From assembly GCF_003018255.1 (NCBI RefSeq), contig NZ_CP027440.1: 64,000 nucleotides of DNA; one strand, 5' to 3'. Under the pieces are notes generated by a model, which was not told where the DNA came from, searched no databases, and saw only the letters and a program-made list of their open reading frames with translations. This document shows, piece after piece, positions 38,176-49,289 of this stretch. Origin of the DNA: Escherichia coli. GTDB taxonomy: Bacteria; Pseudomonadota; Gammaproteobacteria; Enterobacterales; Enterobacteriaceae. The translations under genes and the position numbers were made by a program. Position 1 is the first letter of the stretch. Every line of letters begins with the position of its first letter.

Positions 38176-40608
38176 ATGAGTGTGATTGCGCAGGCAGGGG
38201 CGAAAGGTCGTCAACTGCATAAATTTGGTGGCAGTAGTCTGGCTGATGTGAAGTGTTATTTGCGTGTCGCGGGCATTATGGCGGAGTACTCTCAGCCTGA
38301 CGATATGATGGTGGTTTCCGCCGCCGGTAGCACCACTAACCAGTTGATTAACTGGTTGAAACTAAGCCAGACCGATCGTCTCTCTGCGCATCAGGTTCAA
38401 CAAACGCTACGTCGTTATCAGTGCGATCTGATTAGCGGCCTGCTACCCGCCGAAGAAGCCGATAGCCTCATTAGCGCCTTTGTCAGCGATCTGGAACGCC
38501 TCGCGGCGCTGCTCGACAGCGGTATTAATGATGCGGTGTATGCGGAAGTGGTGGGCCACGGTGAAGTGTGGTCGGCGCGCCTGATGTCTGCGGTACTTAA
38601 TCAACAAGGGCTGCCAGCGGCCTGGCTTGATGCCCGCGAGTTTTTACGCGCTGAACGCGCCGCGCAGCCGCAGGTTGATGAAGGGCTTTCTTACCCGTTG
38701 CTGCAACAGCTACTGGTACAACATCCGGGCAAACGTCTGGTGGTGACCGGGTTTATCAGCCGTAACAACGCCGGTGAAACGGTGCTGCTGGGGCGTAACG
38801 GTTCCGACTATTCCGCGACACAAATCGGTGCGCTGGCGGGTGTTTCCCGCGTAACCATCTGGAGCGATGTCGCCGGGGTATATAGTGCCGACCCGCGTAA
38901 AGTGAAAGATGCCTGTCTGCTGCCATTGCTGCGTCTTGATGAAGCCAGCGAACTGGCGCGTCTGGCGGCCCCCGTTCTTCACGCCCGTACTTTACAGCCA
39001 GTATCCGGTAGTGAAATCGACCTGCAGCTGCGCTGTAGCTACACGCCGGATCAAGGTTCCACGCGCATTGAACGCGTGCTGGCCTCCGGTACTGGTGCGC
39101 GTATTGTCACCAGCCACGATGATGTCTGTTTGATTGAGTTTCAGGTGCCCGCCAGTCAGGATTTTAAACTGGCGCATAAAGAGATCGACCAAATCCTGAA
39201 ACGTGCTCAGGTGCGCCCACTGGCAGTTGGCGTGCATAACGATCGCCAGTTGCTGCAATTTTGCTACACCTCGGAAGTGGCCGACAGTGCGCTGAAAATC
39301 CTCGACGAAGCAGGATTACCCGGCGAACTGCGTCTGCGTCAGGGGCTGGCGCTGGTGGCGATGGTTGGGGCGGGCGTCACCCGTAACCCGCTGCATTGCC
39401 ACCGCTTCTGGCAGCAACTGAAAGGCCAGCCGGTCGAGTTTACCTGGCAGTCCGATGACGGCATCAGCCTGGTGGCAGTACTGCGCACCGGCCCGACCGA
39501 AAGCCTGATTCAGGGGCTGCATCAGTCCGTCTTCCGCGCAGAAAAACGCATCGGCCTGGTATTGTTCGGTAAGGGAAATATCGGTTCCCGCTGGCTGGAA
39601 CTGTTCGCCCGTGAGCAGAGCACGCTCTCGGCGCGCACCGGCTTTGAATTTGTGCTGGCAGGCGTGGTGGACAGCCGTCGCAGCCTGTTGAGCTATGACG
39701 GGCTGGACGCCAGCCGTGCGCTAGCCTTCTTTAATGATGAAGCCGTCGAACAGGATGAAGAGTCGCTATTCCTGTGGATGCGTGCCCATCCGTATGATGA
39801 TTTAGTTGTGCTGGACGTTACTGCCAGCCAGCAGCTTGCTGATCAGTATCTCGATTTCGCCAGCCACGGTTTCCACGTCATCAGTGCCAACAAACTGGCG
39901 GGAGCGAGCGACAGCAATAAATATCGCCAGATCCACGACGCGTTCGAAAAAACCGGGCGTCACTGGCTGTACAACGCCACCGTCGGCGCAGGTTTGCCGA
40001 TCAACCATACCGTGCGCGATCTGATCGACAGCGGCGACACTATTTTGTCGATCAGCGGGATCTTCTCCGGCACGCTCTCCTGGCTGTTCCTGCAATTCGA
40101 CGGTAGCGTGCCGTTTACTGAACTGGTGGATCAGGCGTGGCAGCAGGGCTTAACTGAACCTGACCCGCGTGATGACCTCTCCGGCAAAGATGTGATGCGC
40201 AAGCTGGTGATTCTGGCGCGTGAAGCGGGTTACAACATTGAACCGGACCAGGTGCGTGTTGAATCACTGGTGCCAACCCATTGCGAAGGTGGAAGCATCG
40301 ACCATTTCTTTGAAAATGGCGATGAACTTAATGAGCAGATGGTACAACGGTTGGAAGCGGCCCGTGAAATGGGGCTGGTGTTGCGCTACGTGGCGCGTTT
40401 CGATGCCAACGGCAAAGCGCGAGTAGGCGTGGAAGCGGTGCGAGAAGACCATCCGCTGGCATCACTACTACCGTGCGATAACGTCTTTGCCATCGAAAGC
40501 CGCTGGTATCGCGATAATCCGTTGGTGATCCGCGGGCCAGGTGCAGGGCGCGACGTCACCGCCGGGGCGATTCAGTCGGATATTAACCGTCTGGCGCAGT
40601 TGTTGTAG
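38176..40608 (+). CDS. metL: bifunctional aspartokinase II / homoserine dehydrogenase II
   Basis: 810-aa translation MSVIAQAGAKGRQLHKFGGSSLADVKCYLRVAGIMAEYS. Confidence 0.97.
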   Translation: MSVIAQAGAKGRQLHKFGGSSLADVKCYLRVAGIMAEYSQPDDMMVVSAAGSTTNQLINWLKLSQTDRLSAHQVQQTLRRYQCDLISGLLPAEEADSLISAFVSDLERLAALLDSGINDAVYAEVVGHGEVWSARLMSAVLNQQGLPAAWLDAREFLRAERAAQPQVDEGLSYPLLQQLLVQHPGKRLVVTGFISRNNAGETVLLGRNGSDYSATQIGALAGVSRVTIWSDVAGVYSADPRKVKDACLLPLLRLDEASELARLAAPVLHARTLQPVSGSEIDLQLRCSYTPDQGSTRIERVLASGTGARIVTSHDDVCLIEFQVPASQDFKLAHKEIDQILKRAQVRPLAVGVHNDRQLLQFCYTSEVADSALKILDEAGLPGELRLRQGLALVAMVGAGVTRNPLHCHRFWQQLKGQPVEFTWQSDDGISLVAVLRTGPTESLIQGLHQSVFRAEKRIGLVLFGKGNIGSRWLELFAREQSTLSARTGFEFVLAGVVDSRRSLLSYDGLDASRALAFFNDEAVEQDEESLFLWMRAHPYDDLVVLDVTASQQLADQYLDFASHGFHVISANKLAGASDSNKYRQIHDAFEKTGRHWLYNATVGAGLPINHTVRDLIDSGDTILSISGIFSGTLSWLFLQFDGSVPFTELVDQAWQQGLTEPDPRDDLSGKDVMRKLVILAREAGYNIEPDQVRVESLVPTHCEGGSIDHFFENGDELNEQMVQRLEAAREMGLVLRYVARFDANGKARVGVEAVREDHPLASLLPCDNVFAIESRWYRDNPLVIRGPGAGRDVTAGAIQSDINRLAQLL

Positions 40609-40619
40609 TGATTATTGAA

Positions 40620-40650
40620 CAAAAGCTGGCAGTTGCCAGCTTTTGTTGTC
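40620..40650 (+). terminator. metL intrinsic terminator
   Basis: caaaagctggca-gt-tgccagcttttg perfect 12-bp stem followed by a T-rich tail. Confidence 0.75.
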
Positions 40651-40824
40651 ACCTCTAAACCACCTCCTGCGGAGGTGGTGATTGATTGTCATTTTGCCTT
40701 TGGTCAGTGCCCCGGTAATAAGGGGGCTTTTGTGTTGAGCGATGAATTCACAGTGTGAATGGTGAAGTTATTTATGACAATTACAAAATGGCATTAAGTA
40801 AAAATATCTAAAACATCACCTGAT

Positions 40825-41685
40825 TTAAAATTGATAACCAATAGTAGTATAGGTTCCCCATCCTGTGTTTTTTAATTCAAATGGACCATCTCCGAAGTTA
40901 ACTTTCTCCCCAGCATTCCATTGTCCACCGTTGTGAAAATAACGTAGTGTAAATGCAAATTTCCAGTGTTCATATAGCAGGGAAAGGATATGGCTTGAAG
41001 CAATAGCATTACTGGTTCGTTTATTATTGTGTGATTTGTCCGCAAGATCGGAGCCAAAATCAAAGTTAGTAAAACTATTGTATACCAATCGCCCTCCGAA
41101 TAAATGGGTAAGAGGAATGCTATATTTTATTTTGAATCGATATCCGTCCCATTCATTTTCATTAGCGGCACCATAGTTTTGCCACTGATACTTGGCGTAT
41201 ATATTGGCAGAAAGCTTAATTGGTAGACCCGTGTCGATATCTGTACCAAGCCCCATATACCATGTACTTTGCCGGGATGACTGGTTGTCACCCATATCAT
41301 AGACATAGTTGTTTGCAATGAACCATTCTTTAAAAGGGCCGAACGCAAGATTTAATCCGGTCAATTTGTCAATGGAAAACCGAGGTTCTATTTCCGTAAA
41401 TAGTGGTGAGCCCTCATCCCAGATCCCAACATCATAGTGACTGCCGACGCCAAAGAATTTTGGTAGATCAACATAACCATAAAAATCAAACCAGTCTTTT
41501 CTTCCTGCTACAGTATATTCAGGGTAGAGGTCGTTAGTCAGTCTTGGGCCAAAGCGAGAGTCTGTGCGACCAATGACATTCAAGCTTTGATGTAACCAGC
41601 TTTCATCAATTTTAATTTCCTGAGCGTTTCCAATGCAAGGTATTAATAGAATGGATAAAGCTATCCCGTGCTTTTTTATACACAT
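40825..41685 (-). CDS. Tsx-family outer-membrane nucleoside-specific channel (Tsx paralog)
   Basis: 286 aa with a signal peptide; shares long blocks with E. coli Tsx as I recall it ([81 protein letters not shown]) and ends in an aromatic residue (GYQF). Confidence 0.85.
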
Positions 41686-41724
41686 AAATATATCTCATTA
41701 TTTATTGTTGATTTAGAGAAAAAT

Positions 41725-41761
41725 AATGCCATTCAGTGAATGAATGGCATTATAATTTTTT
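41725..41761 (-). terminator. intrinsic terminator after nucleotidase paralog A (bidirectional-looking)
   Basis: aatgccattca-gtgaa-tgaatggcatt 11-bp perfect stem flanked by A/T runs on both sides. Confidence 0.6.
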
Positions 41762-41763
41762 TA

Positions 41764-43389
41764 TTATTTGCTAACGTCCACCCGCATTTCATTTACCTGT
41801 GCAGGCGTAATCTTGTGGCCTTTCTTCAAATAATCGATCACGACATCGGACATGTTATTTCCGGCGCGGACCTGAACATTTTTCCCTTCTTTGAATGCCA
41901 GAAAACCATCGCCCCCCAGTGCAAGGAAAGTCGTTGTTGCAACATGGTAAATATTCGTATCAACGATCTCTTCACCATTAATTTTAAAAGATACTATGCG
42001 CTGACCTACTGGTTTCTTCGGGGTATAGCGCATTTCTGCGCCTTTTGACATTTGCAGGATGCCATTGGTAAGCGATGCCCCGTGTTCCAGTAGGTTACGC
42101 AGATCCTTACCGCTGAGATCCATTTCAGTAAGTTCATTCTTGAAGGGGAATGTACTGGTAATGTCGCCAAAGGTAATCGTGCCTGCATTTATATCCGCAC
42201 GTAAGCTGCCGGAGTTTATCAATGCAATCTGTGCAGTCGGTGCAGCGACAAGCATTGCATCGGTAAACAGGTTGCCAAGTTGCGATGACTCACCGTAGGC
42301 ACGAGTTAATGCAATCGATGATTCACCGACTGGTTGGCGTACAAGATCCGCCAGTTTTTTATTCCAGCCATTGATAACTTTTTGTGTGGTTGGATCAGGT
42401 ATCCATTCATCGGCATAAACCGTTTTCAGCTCAAAGCTCTTCACTTTATGAGTACGAGCTGTAGGGTTGACATCAAGGATTAATTTACCAATATCGATAC
42501 CGCCACTGTCAGTCGAAAGGATTAAGGTGTTGCCGACTTTGATTGGTTCTGGCGTTCCGACGTGGGCATGCCCGGTAATCAGAATATCCAATCCTTTCAC
42601 CTTGCTTGCGGTTTGAATATCTTTATCAAGAGCGCGTCTAACATCTGTATTGCCAATGCTGGACTGACGCGCCGGTACGCCTTCATGAACCAGCGCCACG
42701 GTGAGGTCAACCTTATCACGTAACTCATCGATATAATGCTGCAAATACTTCACTTCATCACGTGCTTCAATCCCCTGATTCTTGAGGGTCGCGGAAGATT
42801 TATCAAATCGGTTATTATTGTCATTATCGAGTCCCTGGAGAGAGAGCTCCGAGACCGTGTCATTAAATGCAAATACGCCGTGTAGCCCAACAATACCAAT
42901 CTTGATGCCATCTTTTTCCAGGATGGTGTAGGGCTTGTTCCAGAAGGGTTTCTCACTCTCTTTATGATAAACATTGGCTAATAAAACAGGGAAATTCGCT
43001 TTGCTTAATTGTCGGAGGGCATTATCCCAGCCATGGTCAAACTCATGATTACCGATTGATACTGCGTCAAAAGGCATGGTATTCATAATATCAATTATTG
43101 CTTCGCCCTTTGTCAGGCTACTGATATATGGCCCGGTGAAATAGTCTCCAGCATCAAAATAAAAGGTGGCTTTATTTTTGGCTTTCTCTTGTTTTACTAA
43201 CGTGGATATATTGGCAAAGCCACCAATGTCGCGTTTTCCGTCTGCGACATACGGTACTTTATAGGAATCCACATGAGCGTGAAGATCATTGGTATAAATA
43301 ATCGTGACATCCTGCGCCATAACTGAGGTCGAAAAAATAGTCAGCAATGTTGCGGCAAATAAAGTACGCTGCGCTGTTTTCATTCGCAT
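41764..43389 (-). CDS. UshA/CpdB-family periplasmic metallophosphoesterase / 5'-nucleotidase, paralog A
   Basis: 541 aa; signal peptide ending VMA|QD; calcineurin-like motifs [27 protein letters not shown]; C-terminal 5'-nucleotidase-type region with GGDGF; alternative ATG at 43383. Confidence 0.85.
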   Translation of the reverse strand: MRMKTAQRTLFAATLLTIFSTSVMAQDVTIIYTNDLHAHVDSYKVPYVADGKRDIGGFANISTLVKQEKAKNKATFYFDAGDYFTGPYISSLTKGEAIIDIMNTMPFDAVSIGNHEFDHGWDNALRQLSKANFPVLLANVYHKESEKPFWNKPYTILEKDGIKIGIVGLHGVFAFNDTVSELSLQGLDNDNNNRFDKSSATLKNQGIEARDEVKYLQHYIDELRDKVDLTVALVHEGVPARQSSIGNTDVRRALDKDIQTASKVKGLDILITGHAHVGTPEPIKVGNTLILSTDSGGIDIGKLILDVNPTARTHKVKSFELKTVYADEWIPDPTTQKVINGWNKKLADLVRQPVGESSIALTRAYGESSQLGNLFTDAMLVAAPTAQIALINSGSLRADINAGTITFGDITSTFPFKNELTEMDLSGKDLRNLLEHGASLTNGILQMSKGAEMRYTPKKPVGQRIVSFKINGEEIVDTNIYHVATTTFLALGGDGFLAFKEGKNVQVRAGNNMSDVVIDYLKKGHKITPAQVNEMRVDVSK

Positions 43390-43423
43390 TCCTTGTTAAA
43401 TAAATTGACTGATAAATGAGATT

Positions 43424-44977
43424 TTATTTGGCGACGTCCATGACTCGTTTAGTTAAGTCTGGGGTGACAGGTTTATGATTTTTGAAATAATCGATGATAG
43501 ATTCCGCCGAGGTTGTTCCCGGTATCGTCTTCACATTTTTTCCATTCAAAAATGCTTCAAAACCGTCACCACCACTGGCACAAAAGGAGTGCGTGGCAAT
43601 ACGATATGTTTGATTATCTTCCACGGGTTTGCCGTTAATGGTGAAAGAGATTAACCGTTGGTTGAGGGGTTTTTTGCTGTCATAGACAACCGCAACACTT
43701 TTAGAAACTTGTAACACACCGTTAGTTAGATTGGTTGCATGCGTCATCAATGATTTGAGATCGCGGCCCGTCAAATCCATCTCGATGAGGTCATTATTAA
43801 AGGGGAATGTGCTAATAACATCTCCCAGTGTGATATCGCCTTTAGGAAAATCAGCTCGAATCCCACCGCTATTTTGAAATCCGGCAACGGCATCAGGTGT
43901 TTTTTCCATCATTGCATCAAGAATAAGGTTGCCGGTAGAAGAGGAACTACCATACTCACGTGTTAAAACTACGGGAGAATGGCCGACAACTTCCTGTGTT
44001 ATTTTGTTAAGCTTTGCACTCCATTTATCAATAGTATTTTGAACGATGGTGTCAGGTTTAAATTGATCTGCAAAGATGGTGATTAACTCACCATTATAAC
44101 TGTCAATTTTCTTCGTTTTCGGATTGTAATCAAGCACAAGTTTTCCGATGTTGGTGCCGTATGCATCGGTAGATACAATTAATGTGTTATTAACTTTTAT
44201 TGGTTGCGGTGTTCCGACATGTGCGTGACCGGTAATTAAGACATCAACACCATTCACTTTTTTAGCTGTCTCAATATCTGCCTGTAGTAGCCGCTCCACA
44301 TCTTTACTACCAAAGCTTGATTGACGCGCCGGGACACCTTCGTGAATTAGCAAAACGGTAATGTCGACTTTACCTTTTAATTCTGCAAGTGCTTTATTTA
44401 AATATTTAATTTCGTCTCTGGCTTCTACGCCTTCACGTGCTTTTGCCGCGACTGTATCATAGAAAGCGAATGCGCCATGCAATCCAATCACACCAATCTT
44501 TAAACCATCTTTTTCGATAATGGTCCACGGATGATCCCAAACTGGTTTATTCGTATCGGTGTAGTAGATATTTCCCAGCAGAATGGGGAATTTTGCTTTT
44601 GATAACTGAGACACCATATTGGGCACACCGTGATCGAACTCGTGATTACCAACAGACACCGCATCAAAGGGCATAGTGTTCATGATATCAATAATAGCCT
44701 CACCTTTGGTCAGGGTGCTGATATACGGCCCGGTAAAATAGTCGCCTGCATCAAAGAAAAACACATCTTTGCTTTTTTTCTTCGCTTCATTAACGATGCC
44801 TGAAATATTAGCCATACCACCTATAAGTCTGTTCTTATCAACAGCGATGATTTTTGCTGGATTGACATGTGCGTGAATGTCATTCGTATAATAAATAGTA
44901 ACGTCCTGAGCTAGAACACTGTGAGAAAATATCACGCCGAATATGACTGATAATGTTGTAAATACAGTTTTCATCAT
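43424..44977 (-). CDS. UshA/CpdB-family periplasmic metallophosphoesterase / 5'-nucleotidase, paralog B
   Basis: 517 aa; signal peptide ending VLA|QD; same motif set (YTNDIHAH, FDAGDYF, GNHEFD, ITGHAH, GGDGF); 34-bp gap to paralog A suggests co-transcription. Confidence 0.85.
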   Translation of the reverse strand: MMKTVFTTLSVIFGVIFSHSVLAQDVTIYYTNDIHAHVNPAKIIAVDKNRLIGGMANISGIVNEAKKKSKDVFFFDAGDYFTGPYISTLTKGEAIIDIMNTMPFDAVSVGNHEFDHGVPNMVSQLSKAKFPILLGNIYYTDTNKPVWDHPWTIIEKDGLKIGVIGLHGAFAFYDTVAAKAREGVEARDEIKYLNKALAELKGKVDITVLLIHEGVPARQSSFGSKDVERLLQADIETAKKVNGVDVLITGHAHVGTPQPIKVNNTLIVSTDAYGTNIGKLVLDYNPKTKKIDSYNGELITIFADQFKPDTIVQNTIDKWSAKLNKITQEVVGHSPVVLTREYGSSSSTGNLILDAMMEKTPDAVAGFQNSGGIRADFPKGDITLGDVISTFPFNNDLIEMDLTGRDLKSLMTHATNLTNGVLQVSKSVAVVYDSKKPLNQRLISFTINGKPVEDNQTYRIATHSFCASGGDGFEAFLNGKNVKTIPGTTSAESIIDYFKNHKPVTPDLTKRVMDVAK

Positions 44978-45206
44978 CCCTCCTGGATAGGGTGTGTTAC
45001 ATTTGTTGAATTATTTAAATAAAAGACACATCGTGTCTTATTTTATGTAAGCATAGTTCAGAAAAGTATTGTGTGATCTTAGTAACAAATAATGTTATTA
45101 ATTAAACATTGACCATGATTATATTTCACGGTCATACATTTATATATTTAATTAAATGAAAGGTAGTGTTCTCTCTTAATTTATGGTCGTTTGTCGAGTG
45201 TATTGA

Positions 45207-46331
45207 CTAACAAGATGGAGTGAGCGATTCATTGTATTTTAACGCCAGTGAGGTCAGCATTTGTGTTACGCGACCTGCGGATAATAACGCGCTTTGGGTA
45301 AAGTCGTGTTGGTCTGTCAGCCATGTGATAAAACAACGACTGGTTGCCAGAGAAACATTTGCGCCCCTTTCTAAGCAGGCTCCCGTGAGTAGGCAGACCA
45401 TCTTGCAGTTATTCCCCTGCTCCCAGCGCTGCCACTGATTTTGCCACCAACCATGGTATGTCGTTCCCTTAAAATGCCAGGGCGTATCAGCGTTACTGTC
45501 ACTGATTTCTTCTTCTACGAACCAAAGTTCACCTTGTTGTTGGCGGAACTGATCTGCCCAGGCTGTAATAATTGCGCCTCTTAGAAAACATTCGTGTGAA
45601 ATAATATGCGTTTTGACATCTGGATAGCGGATTTTCAGTATTCTGAAATGCCCGTGTGCCGTGATAACCGGGCGTAGTATGGCTCCCTTACCGTTGCGCT
45701 TGAGTACAGCACTGCCATACTGAATTTCATCGAACTGGCTCCGGCGCAAGAATTGCGCTTCACGCATATCTACCTTCTGCACGATATCGCGATGGTGCAT
45801 AGTTGGTTCTGTGTTGCCCTTGTAACTGTACCGCAGACTGTCTCCTGTCTGATGTTGCGTATAATTCGTGGAGAGATGAAGAATGTTGCCACGAGTGGCG
45901 TCAAGACTGACTAAAACATACAGTTTTTGTACTGCGCTGGCCCCTTGAAAGGGTATGAACAGTTGAACGGTTTCAATGGCCTGGGGATGCGTAATTTCTT
46001 TCTGATACTGTTTAGGCGTCCAGACTTTTTTGCAGTTACGGCATTGAATGCGTTGCGAACCCTGTGGATTGTGACCATAACAAATCATGTCTGTGCCATA
46101 ACATACCGGGCAGAAATGACCCTTCTCCGAGGCCCACGTAGATAAGTGAACTGACAACCAGTCACGAAATTGTTGCTCGTCAAACAACGGCGGGTAACTG
46201 CCACATGCCCGACAGTGCAGTGCCGGATAACCCAGTTTATAGTCTGGCCAACTGTAATCTTCCGATGAGGCCAATCCCAAATTTCGGCAACCGAACGTTT
46301 TACAGGCATTAATCGTAAACAGAGTCGACAT
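45207..46331 (-). CDS. cysteine-rich cytoplasmic protein with transposase-type zinc ribbon (possible IS1/IS1595-like transposase relic or regulator)
   Basis: 374-aa ORF with no signal peptide; Cys pairs at C10/C15 and C40/C43, then CPVCYG...GSQRIQCRNCKKVWTP resembling the CPxC...QRYxCxxCxKxW zinc ribbon of IS1 InsA / IS1595 transposases; assignment is by motif only. Confidence 0.55.
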   Translation of the reverse strand: MSTLFTINACKTFGCRNLGLASSEDYSWPDYKLGYPALHCRACGSYPPLFDEQQFRDWLSVHLSTWASEKGHFCPVCYGTDMICYGHNPQGSQRIQCRNCKKVWTPKQYQKEITHPQAIETVQLFIPFQGASAVQKLYVLVSLDATRGNILHLSTNYTQHQTGDSLRYSYKGNTEPTMHHRDIVQKVDMREAQFLRRSQFDEIQYGSAVLKRNGKGAILRPVITAHGHFRILKIRYPDVKTHIISHECFLRGAIITAWADQFRQQQGELWFVEEEISDSNADTPWHFKGTTYHGWWQNQWQRWEQGNNCKMVCLLTGACLERGANVSLATSRCFITWLTDQHDFTQSALLSAGRVTQMLTSLALKYNESLTPSC

Positions 46332-46463
46332 ATATCACCAACGATTTCACAAGGTCGTTGATTTTGTCCGGCAACTATCCCCTGCAGATGTGATTACTCT
46401 CACATAAATAAGTCTTTCAGAACGTAATGTAGCAATCCTTTATCTCACTGAAAGGGATTGTTT

Positions 46464-48017
46464 ATGAAAATTAAAATACTTGCTGCGGGTATCGCATTAA
46501 CACTGCCGTTCTGGGCTTGCGCTAAAGATGTCACTATTATTTATACCAACGACCTCCATGCGCATGTAGAACCTTATAAAGTGCCGTGGATCGCTGACGG
46601 TAAACGGGATATTGGCGGCTGGGCAAATATCACTACGCTGGTTAAGCAAGAAAAAGCAAAAAATAAAGCGACATGGTTTTTTGATGCGGGCGACTATTTT
46701 ACCGGGCCATATATCAGCAGCCTGACCAAAGGTAAGGCTATTATCGATATTATGAATACTATGCCGTTTGATGCCGTCACGATAGGCAACCATGAATTTG
46801 ACCACGGCTGGGACAACACATTATTACAGTTGAGTCAGGCAAAATTCCCGATTGTGCAGGGCAATGTTTTTTATCAGAACAGCAGTAAATCATTCTGGGA
46901 TAAGCCCTATACCATCATCGAAAAAGACGGTGTGAAAATAGGCGTTATAGGTTTGCACGGTGTATTTGCCTTTAATGACACAGTATCTGCTGCCACGCGA
47001 GTGGGTATTGAGGCGCGTGATGAAATTAAATGGCTACAACGTTATATCGATGAACTTAAAGGCAAGGTTGATTTGACCGTCGCCCTGATCCATGAAGGTG
47101 TTCCGGCCCGCCAGTCCAGTATGGGAGGCACAGATGTGCGTCGCGCGCTGGATAAAGATATTCAGACGGCAAGTCAGGTGAAAGGGCTGGATATTTTGAT
47201 CACCGGACATGCACATGTGGGTACGCCGGAACCGATTAAAGTCGGCAATACGCTCATCCTCTCCACTGACAGCGGCGGGATTGATGTGGGCAAACTGGTT
47301 CTCGACTACAAAGAGAAGCCGCATAATTTTACGGTGAAAAACTTCGAGCTTAAAACCATTTACGCTGACGAGTGGAAGCCCGATCCACAAACGAAACAGG
47401 TGATCGACGGCTGGAATAAAAAGCTTGATGAAGTGGTGCAACAAACGGTGGCGCAATCGCCGGTTGAATTAAAACGTGCCTATGGTGAATCGGCTTCCCT
47501 CGGGAACCTGGCGGCTGACGCTTTACTGGTAGCGGCGGGTAAAAACACCCAATTGGCGTTAACCAACTCTGGCGGCATTCGCAATGAGATCCCCGCAGGG
47601 GCGATCACGATGGGCGGCGTCATCAGTACGTTCCCGTTCCCCAACGAACTGGTGACGATGGAACTCACGGGTAAACAATTACGCAGTCTGATGGAACACG
47701 GCGCAAGTTTAAGCAATGGCGTTTTACAGGTATCGAAAGGCCTGGAAATGAAGTACGACAGCAGCAAGCCGGTTGGTCAGCGGGTAATCACACTGACTCT
47801 GAATGGCAAACCCATTGAAGATGCGACGGTTTATCACATTGCTACTCAGAGTTTCCTTGCTGATGGTGGAGATGGTTTTACCGCCTTTACCGAAGGGAAA
47901 GCGCGTAACACAACGGGCGGTTATTACGTTTATCACGCGGTGGTTGATTACTTCAAAGCGGGCAACACCATTACGGATGAACAGCTCAACGGTATGCGCG
48001 TGAAGGATATCAAATAA
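46464..48017 (+). CDS. UshA/CpdB-family periplasmic metallophosphoesterase / 5'-nucleotidase, paralog C
   Basis: 517 aa from the ATG at 46464 (RBS aaggga; the ORF-track ORF starts at a TTG at 46458); signal peptide ending ACA|KD; motifs [32 protein letters not shown]; closest by eye to paralog A. Confidence 0.85.
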
Positions 48018-48073
48018 AAGTGCGCACTGAATTGACTCAACTGTTTGTTACCCGTTGATTGCGCAGATCCTGT

Positions 48074-48103
48074 ATTCGGCCTACGCGAGGGCGCAGGCCG
48101 AAT
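48074..48103 (+). terminator. stem-loop downstream of paralog C (possible terminator)
   Basis: attcggcct-N12-aggccgaat 9-bp inverted repeat; no strong T-run, so weak. Confidence 0.35.
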
Positions 48104-48326
48104 CAGATGCCTTAGCATCACCATCCGGTGGCAGGACGTTGTTTTTCGAATTAGCCCAGGTGTCGCTGTGTTGTCAGAATATGAGTCAAAACGTGCGAGG
48201 TGGATTGTGCTATAGAGAAATCTTTTATCGCCTCTAATTAAGATGAGTTTTTTTCATCTTCCCTGATTTTTCCTCACCATCATTGGTTATTTTTCGGTTG
48301 ACGCCCTTCGGCTTTTCCTTCATCTT

Positions 48327-48358
48327 TACATCTGGACGTCTAAACGGATAGATGTGCA
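48327..48358. promoter_or_regulatory. met boxes (MetJ operator) of the metF promoter
   Basis: acatctggacgtctaaacggatagatgtgcac contains repeated AGACGTCT-like octamers just upstream of metF. Confidence 0.6.
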
Positions 48359-48395
48359 CAACACAACATATAACGATAAGCGATTGATGAGGTAA

Positions 48396-49289
<894 letters not shown>

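What the first reader, a model, noticed from the sequence alone, without database searches (positions are those of the whole stretch)
41764..48017. Paralogs A and C form a long inverted repeat bracketing paralog B and the zinc-ribbon gene
A (minus strand) and C (plus strand) are the two most similar paralogs and lie in opposite orientation about 3 kb apart, with B and the zinc-ribbon gene between them. Inverted homologous genes can support recombination-mediated inversion of the intervening segment, which would swap promoters or create chimeric nucleotidases. At the least, the arrangement records a duplication-inversion history.
Basis: inference. Interest (0 to 1): 0.4.

Follow-up and report, generated by a model that had tools for sequence, protein, structure and literature searches.

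The report
Ancient inverted nucleotidase paralogs, not switch
Two oppositely oriented copies of a periplasmic nucleotidase gene in a known, variably present E. coli islet are old, well-diverged paralogs that do not flip the DNA between them, although two draft genomes show that one copy has occasionally overwritten about 400 bases of the other.

Summary
A (41764-43389, minus) and C (46464-48017, plus) are the most similar of three 5'-nucleotidase paralogs (66.9% nt, 67.8% aa). They are inverted, 3,074 nt apart, and bracket B and a zinc-ribbon gene.

The window is E. coli, and the genes form the known variable islet between metL and metF (GR 31; C is PDB 3IVD/3IVE).

The inversion idea fails:
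- The longest identical A/C tract is 17 nt.
- Synonymous sites are saturated.
- All 658 of 5,426 complete E. coli genomes that carry A have the same orientation, as does Citrobacter enshiensis.
- No single-switch A/C chimera, the product expected of an inversion crossover, is on record.

The paralogs are ancient. Each has 84-93% orthologs in other genera, and in E. albertii and Enterobacter all copies point the same way. In E. coli the tsx-A-B block and the resident C have different histories, with a breakpoint inside the zinc-ribbon gene.

Recombination is not zero. Two draft E. coli genomes carry independent A-to-C conversion tracts of at least 400 and 445 nt with different borders, and one metagenome scaffold carries a B/A deletion fusion.

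This is ordinary paralog biology with rare homeologous gene conversion. Interest is low.

The parts
40825..41685 (-). Tsx-like nucleoside-specific outer-membrane channel gene, last gene of the minus-strand block
   Evidence: Pfam Channel_Tsx E = 4e-70. NCBIfam NF011686 scores 493 bits against a cut-off of 311. RefSeq annotation.
41764..43389 (-). Paralog A, a periplasmic 5'-nucleotidase-family gene and the left arm of the inverted pair (RefSeq start 43383)
   Evidence: Catalytic motifs intact. Orthologs at 84-87% in Citrobacter, E. albertii and Enterobacter.
43424..44977 (-). Paralog B, the most divergent copy (56-57% aa to A and C), in tandem with A
   Evidence: It forms a separate clade in the tree.
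45207..46331 (-). Zinc-ribbon gene of unknown function. It has two invariant Cys4 clusters, belongs to an orphan Enterobacteriaceae family, and is divergently paired with C or, in Cronobacter, with a related D-clade nucleotidase, in every version of the locus examined
   Evidence: Alignment. Only sub-threshold InsA/IS1-type zinc-ribbon hits. 248 clusters at 90% identity and 159 representatives at 50% identity. The AF2 model is unusable, pLDDT 44.6.
46464..48017 (+). Paralog C, the right arm of the inverted pair. It is present in 1,843 of 5,426 complete E. coli genomes and is about 99% identical to PDB 3IVD/3IVE
42242..43311 (-). Part of A that aligns without gaps to C (blocks 42242-42775 and 42851-43311)
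   Evidence: Inverted repeats I1 (534 nt, 70%) and I2 (461 nt, 75%).
46527..47536 (+). Part of C that aligns without gaps to A (blocks 46527-46987 and 47003-47536)
43121..43137 (-). Longest perfectly identical A/C tract (17 nt, ACCGGGCCATATATCAG). Its partner in C is 46701-46717
42789..42848 (-). A-specific 60-nt (20-aa) insert that is absent from B and C. Both conversion tracts carry it into C
42679..43078 (-). Donor segment of A that matches the conversion tract in E. coli GCA_001520995.1 (L003). The replaced segment of C is 46760-47099
   Evidence: 161 informative sites are A-type against 3 C-type. The tract is 97.0% identical to window A. Shared sequence at the borders is 14 nt and 2 nt.
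42577..43021 (-). Donor segment of A that matches the second, independent conversion tract in E. coli GCA_001520215.1 (L011). The replaced segment of C is 46817-47201
   Evidence: The tract is 99.1% identical to window A. Shared sequence at the borders is 2 nt and 5 nt.
42665..42675 (-). 11-nt run (CCGGCGCGTCA on the coding strand) shared with B at 44322-44332. It is the junction of the B/A deletion fusion seen in metagenome scaffold L004
45900..46000 (.). Approximate recombination breakpoint inside the zinc-ribbon gene. To its right the 5-gene and 2-gene alleles are 85-100% identical (C onward 94-100%). To its left they are 62-80% identical
46389..46404 (+). TGTGATTACTCTCACA in the conserved Zn-C divergent promoter region. 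It is the only perfect TGTGA-N6-TCACA (CRP core consensus) in the 64-kb window
   Evidence: The CRP assignment is an inference from the consensus and was not tested.
46339..46360 (+). Perfect palindrome CAACGA-N10-TCGTTG next to the Zn start codon. The left arm is invariant and the right arm differs at one base (TCGCTG) in the two Enterobacter loci
45072..45087 (+). One-mismatch CRP-like site in the Zn-B intergenic region, upstream of B

Best explanation
A and C are ancient paralogs of a distinct subfamily of periplasmic 5'-nucleotidase/metallophosphatase enzymes. They sit in a known, variably present nucleotide/nucleoside-scavenging islet between metL and metF of E. coli. The conserved core of the locus is a divergently transcribed pair: the zinc-ribbon gene and nucleotidase C. 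In the 5-gene allele a further block (B, A and a Tsx-like porin) lies downstream of the zinc-ribbon gene on its strand, and this automatically places A in inverted orientation to C. The inverted pair is therefore a by-product of modular locus assembly, not a recombination switch. At 67% identity with no identical tract longer than 17 nt, it is a very poor substrate for RecA-dependent crossover, and the segment is fixed in one orientation. Very rarely, homeologous non-reciprocal recombination (gene conversion) copies about 400-450 nt of A, including A's 20-aa insert, into C, producing an intact chimeric enzyme. Shown here: the anatomy, the divergence, the single orientation, the old age of the paralogs, and the mosaic alleles. 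Inferred: the enzymatic role, the CRP-type regulation, and the molecular pathway of the conversions.
For: - Identity and tract lengths.
- Third-position identity in codons with a conserved amino acid is 47% for A-C, against 59-62% for A or C orthologs between genera.
- The tree places A with Citrobacter, E. albertii and Enterobacter orthologs and a Cronobacter/Atlantibacter sister clade before it joins the C clade.
- There is no concerted evolution: within-genome A-C identity equals cross-genus A-C identity in every 50-codon window.
- One orientation only: 658 genomes carry A and 658 hold the 8-kb region collinear at 80% coverage or more. A genome without A could cover at most 79.7%, so the two sets are identical. 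The middle segment gives the same count of 658. The layout is the same at metL-metF in Citrobacter enshiensis.
- The divergent Zn|nucleotidase core is found alone in the E. coli 2-gene allele, in Enterobacter ECC-175 and in Cronobacter.
- The co-oriented layout is found in Enterobacter and E. albertii.
- A breakpoint lies inside the Zn gene.
- Mosaic alleles.
- The contig of L003 ends 319 nt into A with a 20-nt overlap to the tract and a different preceding base, which marks a true branch in the reads.
- Published measurements fit: RecABCD inversion between inverted repeats falls from 3e-4 to 3e-6 at 22% divergence, and joints can lie in identity blocks as small as 2 bp (PMC2327257).
- The islet is described as GR 31 and proposed to process nucleosides (PMC12928451). 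C is a solved 'Nucleotidase' structure.
Against: - Complete genomes are consensus assemblies, so a low-frequency inverted subpopulation within a culture would not be seen.
- The two mosaic alleles come only from draft short-read assemblies with neighbouring accession numbers. None of the 5,426 complete genomes has one. Raw reads could not be inspected.
- For L011, the presence of an intact donor A in the same genome is not shown, because the contig starts inside B.
- No experiment assigns substrates to A, B or C, or a role to the zinc-ribbon protein.
Confidence: 0.82

Rival explanations
1. The inverted pair is a working recombination substrate. Homologous crossover between A and C flips the B/zinc-ribbon segment, swapping promoters and 5' gene parts.
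For: The geometry is right: divergent homologous genes 3,074 nt apart. Recombination between A and C has happened at least twice in nature. Inversion between 22%-diverged inverted repeats is measurable in lambda assays, and phage recombinases tolerate about 30% divergence (PMC2327257).
Against: 0 of 658 complete genomes are inverted. Citrobacter has the same orientation. No single-switch chimera appears among the best hits of two database searches. The longest identical run is 17 nt and overall identity is 67%. No recombinase gene lies in the islet.
Confidence: 0.03
2. The arrangement records a recent in-place duplication followed by inversion in the E. coli lineage.
For: A and C are the closest pair and lie adjacent in inverted orientation.
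Against: Synonymous sites are saturated. A is closer to proteins of Cronobacter and Atlantibacter than to C. A and C each have 84-93% orthologs in other genera. C occurs without A in about 1,185 genomes. The breakpoint inside the Zn gene shows that the A-bearing block and C have different histories.
Confidence: 0.03
3. The mosaic C genes and the B/A fusion are assembly artefacts, so there is no recombination among the paralogs at all.
For: All three come from draft or metagenome assemblies. The two mosaics have neighbouring GenBank accession series. No complete genome has any of them. The B/A fusion also carries a frameshift.
Against: The two mosaics differ at 116 of 1,614 nt and have different tract borders. 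The borders share only 2-14 nt, too little for a k-mer graph misjoin. The tract includes a 60-nt insertion, which mapping-based consensus would not create. The reading frames are intact at 537 aa. The L003 contig breaks exactly where an A/mosaic branch is expected. The fusion junction is an 11-nt run, shorter than the smallest k-mers that metagenome assemblers commonly use (own knowledge).
Confidence: 0.12
4. The A-to-C tracts arose by replication template switching between the inverted arms rather than by RecA- or phage-recombinase-mediated homeologous recombination.
For: Inverted repeats are known substrates for template switching (own knowledge). Border microhomologies are very short at 2-14 nt. 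Both events are non-reciprocal.
Against: Tracts of 400-445 nt between arms 3 kb apart are long for a switch and switch-back. The borders lie in or beside the best-conserved A/C blocks, as expected for homology-guided pairing. Joints in 2-bp identity blocks are also seen in RecABCD homeologous recombination. The available data cannot separate the two pathways.
Confidence: 0.2

Closest known systems
GR 31 (metL..metF) genomic region of ExPEC/APEC E. coli (PMC12928451)
   Same: The same locus and genes: a Tsx-like porin and three UshA-domain proteins between metL and metF, proposed as a coordinated nucleoside processing and transport system. The window is 100% identical to E. coli JNE23-011 across the region.
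   Different: The passages I retrieved from that paper by term search (metL, nucleotidase, Tsx) do not mention the inverted A/C relationship, the 2-gene allele, the zinc-ribbon gene, the co-oriented layouts in other genera, or the mosaic alleles. I did not read the whole paper.
PDB 3IVD/3IVE 'Nucleotidase'
   Same: About 99% identical to paralog C over residues 19-517.
   Different: That entry is C only. A and B have no close solved structure, and the A-type insert is absent from it.
UshA, CpdB and NadN periplasmic nucleotidases
   Same: The same two-domain architecture (Metallophos plus 5_nucleotid_C), the same catalytic motifs, and a signal peptide.
   Different: All equivalog cut-offs are missed by a wide margin (UshA 152-169 bits against 600, CpdB 82-103 against 486, NadN 123-134 against 436). 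This is a separate subfamily.
Homeologous recombination between diverged inverted repeats (lambda oxa assay, PMC2327257)
   Same: Inverted, diverged gene pairs yield hybrid genes. Joints can lie in identity blocks as small as 2 bp and prefer the longest identical blocks, and non-reciprocal events occur.
   Different: Here divergence is 25-33% rather than 22%, the context is chromosomal, only conversion products are seen, and no inversion is seen.
Programmed invertible DNA switches (fimS, hin and shufflon types; own knowledge)
   Same: A segment bracketed by inverted repeats.
   Different: Those use short repeats and a dedicated site-specific recombinase, and both orientations coexist. None of these features is present here.

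Membership tests
5'-nucleotidase / metallophosphatase superfamily | N-terminal calcineurin-like phosphoesterase domain plus C-terminal 5'-nucleotidase domain | tested here: met
   PF00149 and PF02872 score above their cut-offs in A, B and C.
5'-nucleotidase / metallophosphatase superfamily | Metal-binding and catalytic motifs (DxH, GD, GNHE, HEG, GHxH) | tested here: met
   NDLHA/NDIHA, FDAGD, GNHEFD, L[IV]HEG and ITGHAH are present in A, B, C and both mosaics.
UshA (bifunctional UDP-sugar hydrolase/5'-nucleotidase) equivalog | Score at or above the NCBIfam NF007109 cut-off (600 bits) | tested here: not met
   152-169 bits.
Tsx nucleoside channel | Score at or above the NF011686 cut-off (311 bits) and a full-length Channel_Tsx domain | tested here: met
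   493 bits. PF03502 covers residues 29-286.
Recombination-proficient inverted repeat (substrate for RecA-dependent inversion) | At least one identical tract of about 30 bp or more (minimal homology cited in PMC2327257) and low divergence | tested here: not met
   The longest identical tract is 17 nt. Overall identity is 66.9%, and the best 60-nt windows reach 80-85%.
Recombination-proficient inverted repeat (substrate for RecA-dependent inversion) | Both orientations of the bracketed segment found among related genomes | tested here: not met
   658 of 658 complete E. coli genomes are collinear. Citrobacter enshiensis has the same orientation.
Site-specific invertible switch | Dedicated recombinase gene adjacent to, or inside, the invertible segment | tested here: not met
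   The islet holds only tsx, three nucleotidase genes and the zinc-ribbon gene, with no recombinase domain.
Interparalog gene conversion | A donor-type tract flanked on both sides by acceptor-type sequence in the acceptor locus | tested here: met
   L003: C / A tract of at least 400 nt / C, with 536 of 561 informative sites fitting. L011: C / A tract of at least 445 nt / C, with 574 of 584 fitting.
Interparalog gene conversion | The donor copy is retained unchanged in the same genome (non-reciprocal) | tested here: inconclusive
   The L003 contig holds the first 319 nt of A and breaks at the start of the tract with a 20-nt overlap, which implies the tract is present twice. The rest of A, and the A gene of L011, are not on the available contigs.
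IS1 InsA / IS1595-type transposase zinc ribbon (zinc-ribbon gene) | Score at or above the family cut-offs, with an HTH and/or DDE domain | tested here: not met
   PF03811 scores 16.5 bits against 26.1, NF050000 23.2 against 28, and NF033558 22.4 against 100. No HTH or DDE domain was detected. Distant relatives give only sub-threshold hits.

The most novel reading that the evidence does not exclude
The paralog cluster acts as a cassette reservoir. The two independent A-to-C transfers overlap and both carry the A-specific 20-aa insert together with an A-type segment of the catalytic N-terminal domain into the widespread C enzyme. This could reflect selection for a new specificity rather than neutral accident, which would make rare homeologous conversion a route for diversifying periplasmic nucleotidases.
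Probability: 0.06. Interest if true: 0.45.

Novelty: new member of a known kind. Interest (0 to 1): 0.2.

Why it matters
The practical value is mostly negative. This inverted gene pair should not be treated as a phase-variable or invertible element, and the metL-metF islet can be regarded as structurally stable.

Three smaller positive points follow:
1. It gives a natural example of gene conversion between chromosomal paralogs that are 25-33% diverged, with joints at 2-14 nt of identity. This matches laboratory data on homeologous recombination.
2. It shows that the islet is modular. A conserved divergent zinc-ribbon|nucleotidase core carries add-on nucleotidase and porin genes in at least three layouts at three chromosomal sites.
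3. It points to an uncharacterised zinc-ribbon protein and a conserved promoter region with a perfect CRP-type site, which are the obvious handles for working out what the system does.

Tried and rejected
- Structure prediction of the zinc-ribbon protein from a 26-sequence alignment gave pLDDT 44.6. I ran no fold search because matches to such a model would be meaningless.
- A profile search of 1.84 billion representatives and Pfam scans of distant relatives gave no functional assignment beyond sub-threshold InsA-type zinc-ribbon hits.
- An Rfam scan of 40000-49000 found nothing.
- The promoter scan found fewer promoter-like sites than shuffled sequence, and the terminator scan was not clearly enriched (11 against 7.4 ± 2.9). 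Only a few hairpins are worth noting.
- The first literature query failed on a term-syntax error.
- I checked intermediate-identity partial proteins (P0395, P0394, P0037, P0392, P0393, P0079, P0396, P0398) as possible truncated mosaics. All are purely A-type or purely C-type.
- I considered P0036 (Citrobacter amalonaticus) as a possible chimera, but it belongs to the separate Cronobacter/Atlantibacter-type clade.
- I tested for concerted evolution of A and C in the window's lineage and found none.
- I did not run the costly genome contigs or metagenome scans, because targeted look-ups already gave four other genera.

Full report
**What is there.** The window is E. coli chromosome, 100% identical to strain JNE23-011 over 40500-48500. 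Between metL (38176-40608) and metF (48399-49289) lies a 5-gene islet of low G+C (0.43 against 0.51 for the window):
- a Tsx-like porin gene (40825-41685, minus)
- paralog A (41764-43389, minus)
- paralog B (43424-44977, minus)
- a zinc-ribbon gene (45207-46331, minus)
- paralog C (46464-48017, plus)

A, B and C each have Metallophos and 5_nucleotid_C domains and intact catalytic motifs. They miss every named equivalog cut-off (UshA, CpdB, NadN, SoxB), so they form their own subfamily. C is about 99% identical to PDB 3IVD/3IVE, 'Nucleotidase'. The islet has been described as GR 31 (metL..metF) of APEC/ExPEC strains and proposed to process and import nucleosides (PMC12928451).

**Checking the observation.** It is correct.
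- A and C are the closest pair at 66.9% nt and 67.8% aa. A-B is 58.7%/56.1% and B-C is 58.0%/56.9%.
- They are inverted, with ungapped arms of 534 nt (70%) and 461 nt (75%).
- Their start codons are 3,074 nt apart.

**Can the pair support inversion?** The sequence argues against it.
- The longest perfectly identical tract is 17 nt (43121-43137 / 46701-46717), followed by four runs of 14 nt.
- Third-codon-position identity is 42% overall, and 47% in codons whose amino acid is conserved. Synonymous sites are therefore saturated.
- PMC2327257 cites a minimal homology of about 30 bp. It measured RecABCD-dependent inversion between inverted repeats falling from 3e-4 for identical repeats to 3e-6 at 22% divergence.
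- Here divergence is 33% overall and 15-25% in the best blocks.

**Population test.**
- A is present in 658 of 5,426 complete E. coli genomes, once in each.
- The 8-kb region is covered at 80% or more by one collinear alignment in 658 genomes.
- A genome lacking A could cover at most 79.7% of that query, and an inverted genome would split into pieces of about 37% and 56%. The two sets of 658 are therefore identical and none is inverted.
- The middle segment alone gives the same 658.
- Citrobacter enshiensis has the same five genes in the same layout at the same metL-metF site.
- An inversion crossover would leave two single-switch A/C hybrid genes. None appears among the best hits of two searches of 5.8 billion proteins.

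**History.**
- A neighbour-joining tree places A with orthologs from Citrobacter, E. albertii and Enterobacter (81-87% identity).
- Next comes a Cronobacter/Atlantibacter clade (70-75%), and only after that the C clade from E. coli, Kluyvera and Enterobacter. B is much further out.
- Within-genome A-C identity equals cross-genus A-C identity in every 50-codon window. The better-conserved blocks therefore reflect selection on catalytic regions, not recent exchange.

E. coli has three alleles at this site:
- empty, as in K-12
- a 2-gene allele (zinc-ribbon gene plus C) in about 1,185 genomes
- the 5-gene allele in 658 genomes

Comparing the 5-gene and 2-gene alleles shows a sharp breakpoint inside the zinc-ribbon gene near 45990. 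To its right, identity is 85-100% (94-100% from C onward). To its left, identity is 62-80%. The tsx-A-B block, with the 3' part of the zinc-ribbon gene, therefore has a different history from the resident C.

Other genera show other layouts:
- In Enterobacter chuandaensis and E. asburiae the order is Zn(-) | C(+) B'(+) tsx'(+) A(+).
- In E. albertii a fourth paralog is added, and the locus lies in the kdsA-chaA region.
- In both of these layouts A and C are direct repeats.
- Cronobacter, Enterobacter ECC-175 and the E. coli 2-gene allele keep only the divergent pair of zinc-ribbon gene and nucleotidase.

The inverted A/C relationship is thus a consequence of where the add-on block sits relative to a conserved divergent core. 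It is not a recent duplication-inversion.

**Recombination does occur, rarely and non-reciprocally.** The homolog search turned up P0015 (WP_059327147.1), an E. coli protein of 537 aa that is C-type at both ends and A-type in the middle.
- *First mosaic (L003, GCA_001520995.1).*
  - The tract is at least 400 nt and replaces C nt 297-636 (window 46760-47099). It corresponds to A 42679-43078.
  - 161 informative sites are A-type against 3 C-type. Shared sequence at the borders is 14 nt and 2 nt.
  - The contig ends 319 nt into A. It overlaps the start of the tract by exactly 20 nt, with a different preceding base. That is the signature of a real branch in the read graph, meaning A is intact and the tract is present twice.
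- *Second mosaic (P0121, WP_059334829.1; L011, GCA_001520215.1).*
  - It differs from the first at 116 of 1,614 nt.
  - Its borders are different: C nt 354-738, a tract of at least 445 nt, with 2 nt and 5 nt shared.

These are two independent A-to-C events. Both carry A's 20-aa insert, and both have borders in or next to the two best-conserved A/C blocks. Border identities this short exclude a k-mer misassembly. They match the published observation that homeologous joints can lie in 2-bp identity blocks.

A metagenome scaffold (L004) carries a B-N-terminus/A-C-terminus fusion joined within the 11-nt run CCGGCGCGTCA, followed by tsx and metL. That is the product of a deletion between the tandem B and A genes, and it also carries a later frameshift. 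No complete genome carries any of these variants. I could not inspect raw reads, so a residual artefact risk of about 0.1 remains.

**The zinc-ribbon gene.** It belongs to a small family found only in Enterobacteriaceae: 248 clusters at 90% identity and 159 representatives at 50% identity among 1.84 billion proteins. It has two invariant Cys4 clusters and a conserved domain of about 270 aa. Only sub-threshold InsA/IS1-type zinc-ribbon hits were found. The AlphaFold model was unusable. Its function stays unknown. Its constant divergent pairing with a nucleotidase makes a regulatory role a reasonable but untested guess.

**Regulatory hints.** The Zn-C intergenic region is more conserved across genera (85% mean column identity) than the flanking genes. 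It contains:
- a perfect palindrome at 46339-46360
- the only perfect TGTGA-N6-TCACA of the 64-kb window, at 46389-46404

A one-mismatch copy of that motif lies upstream of B at 45072-45087. The motif is the CRP core consensus (own knowledge). CRP control would fit a nucleoside-scavenging role, as for tsx, deo, udp and cdd, but this is inference only.

**Verdict.** Chimeric genes exist, but through rare gene conversion. The 'duplication-inversion history' is ancient and modular rather than local. The locus is already described, and the only new elements are the mosaic alleles and the comparative layouts. Interest is low (0.2).

Noticed in passing
window 46332-46463: The Zn-C divergent intergenic region is more conserved across E. 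coli, Citrobacter and Enterobacter (85% mean column identity) than the coding regions. It holds a perfect palindrome CAACGA-N10-TCGTTG (46339-46360), an invariant CTTTCAGAACGTAA (46414-46427), and the only perfect CRP-core match of the 64-kb window (46389-46404).
   Followed up: partly
window 45072-45087: A one-mismatch CRP-like site (TGTGATCTTAGTAACA) lies in the Zn-B intergenic region upstream of B. Together with the site upstream of C, it suggests catabolite control of both transcription units.
   Followed up: no
window 45207-46331: The zinc-ribbon protein belongs to an orphan family restricted to Enterobacteriaceae. It has two invariant Cys4 clusters and invariant D144, D201, H226, H228, H246, E247 and E274. 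The Cronobacter homolog and other longer relatives carry an extra segment of about 40 aa after the second ribbon that may be an HTH. No function could be assigned.
   Followed up: partly
window ~45900-46000, compared with L002: A recombination breakpoint lies inside the zinc-ribbon gene between the 5-gene and 2-gene alleles. In the 2-gene allele the 3' end of the zinc-ribbon gene overlaps the end of metL (L002 1573-2703 against metL ending at 1609).
   Followed up: partly
L012-L014 (E. albertii), L006, L007 and L015 (Enterobacter): Other versions of the cluster sit at different chromosomal sites: the kdsA-chaA region in E. albertii, and next to an arylsulfotransferase gene in Enterobacter. All nucleotidase genes there are co-oriented. 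E. albertii has a fourth paralog, and the porin gene is only 57-59% identical to the window's tsx-like gene.
   Followed up: partly
L004 377-1855: A metagenome scaffold carries a B/A fusion gene joined in an 11-nt shared run (window 44322-44332 / 42665-42675), with an additional frameshift near the 3' end. It is probably a decaying deletion derivative.
   Followed up: partly
hits H55 and H68: One complete E. coli genome (CS18F) has an IS1 inserted in C, and another (2018-05-2CC) keeps only the C-terminal third of C. Two copies of C lie on plasmids.
   Followed up: no
proteins P0396 and P0398: Salmonella enterica (Typhi and Newport) records hold truncated C-type proteins of 333-368 aa, possibly pseudogene remnants of the same locus.
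   Followed up: no
window 41723-41753: A 13-bp-stem hairpin lies between the A stop codon and the tsx-like start codon and scores as a terminator on both strands. It could partly uncouple tsx expression from B-A.
   Followed up: no
L005 13037-14020 (Citrobacter enshiensis): An extra 327-aa predicted membrane protein gene lies between the tsx-like gene and metL. It is absent from the E. coli islet.
   Followed up: no
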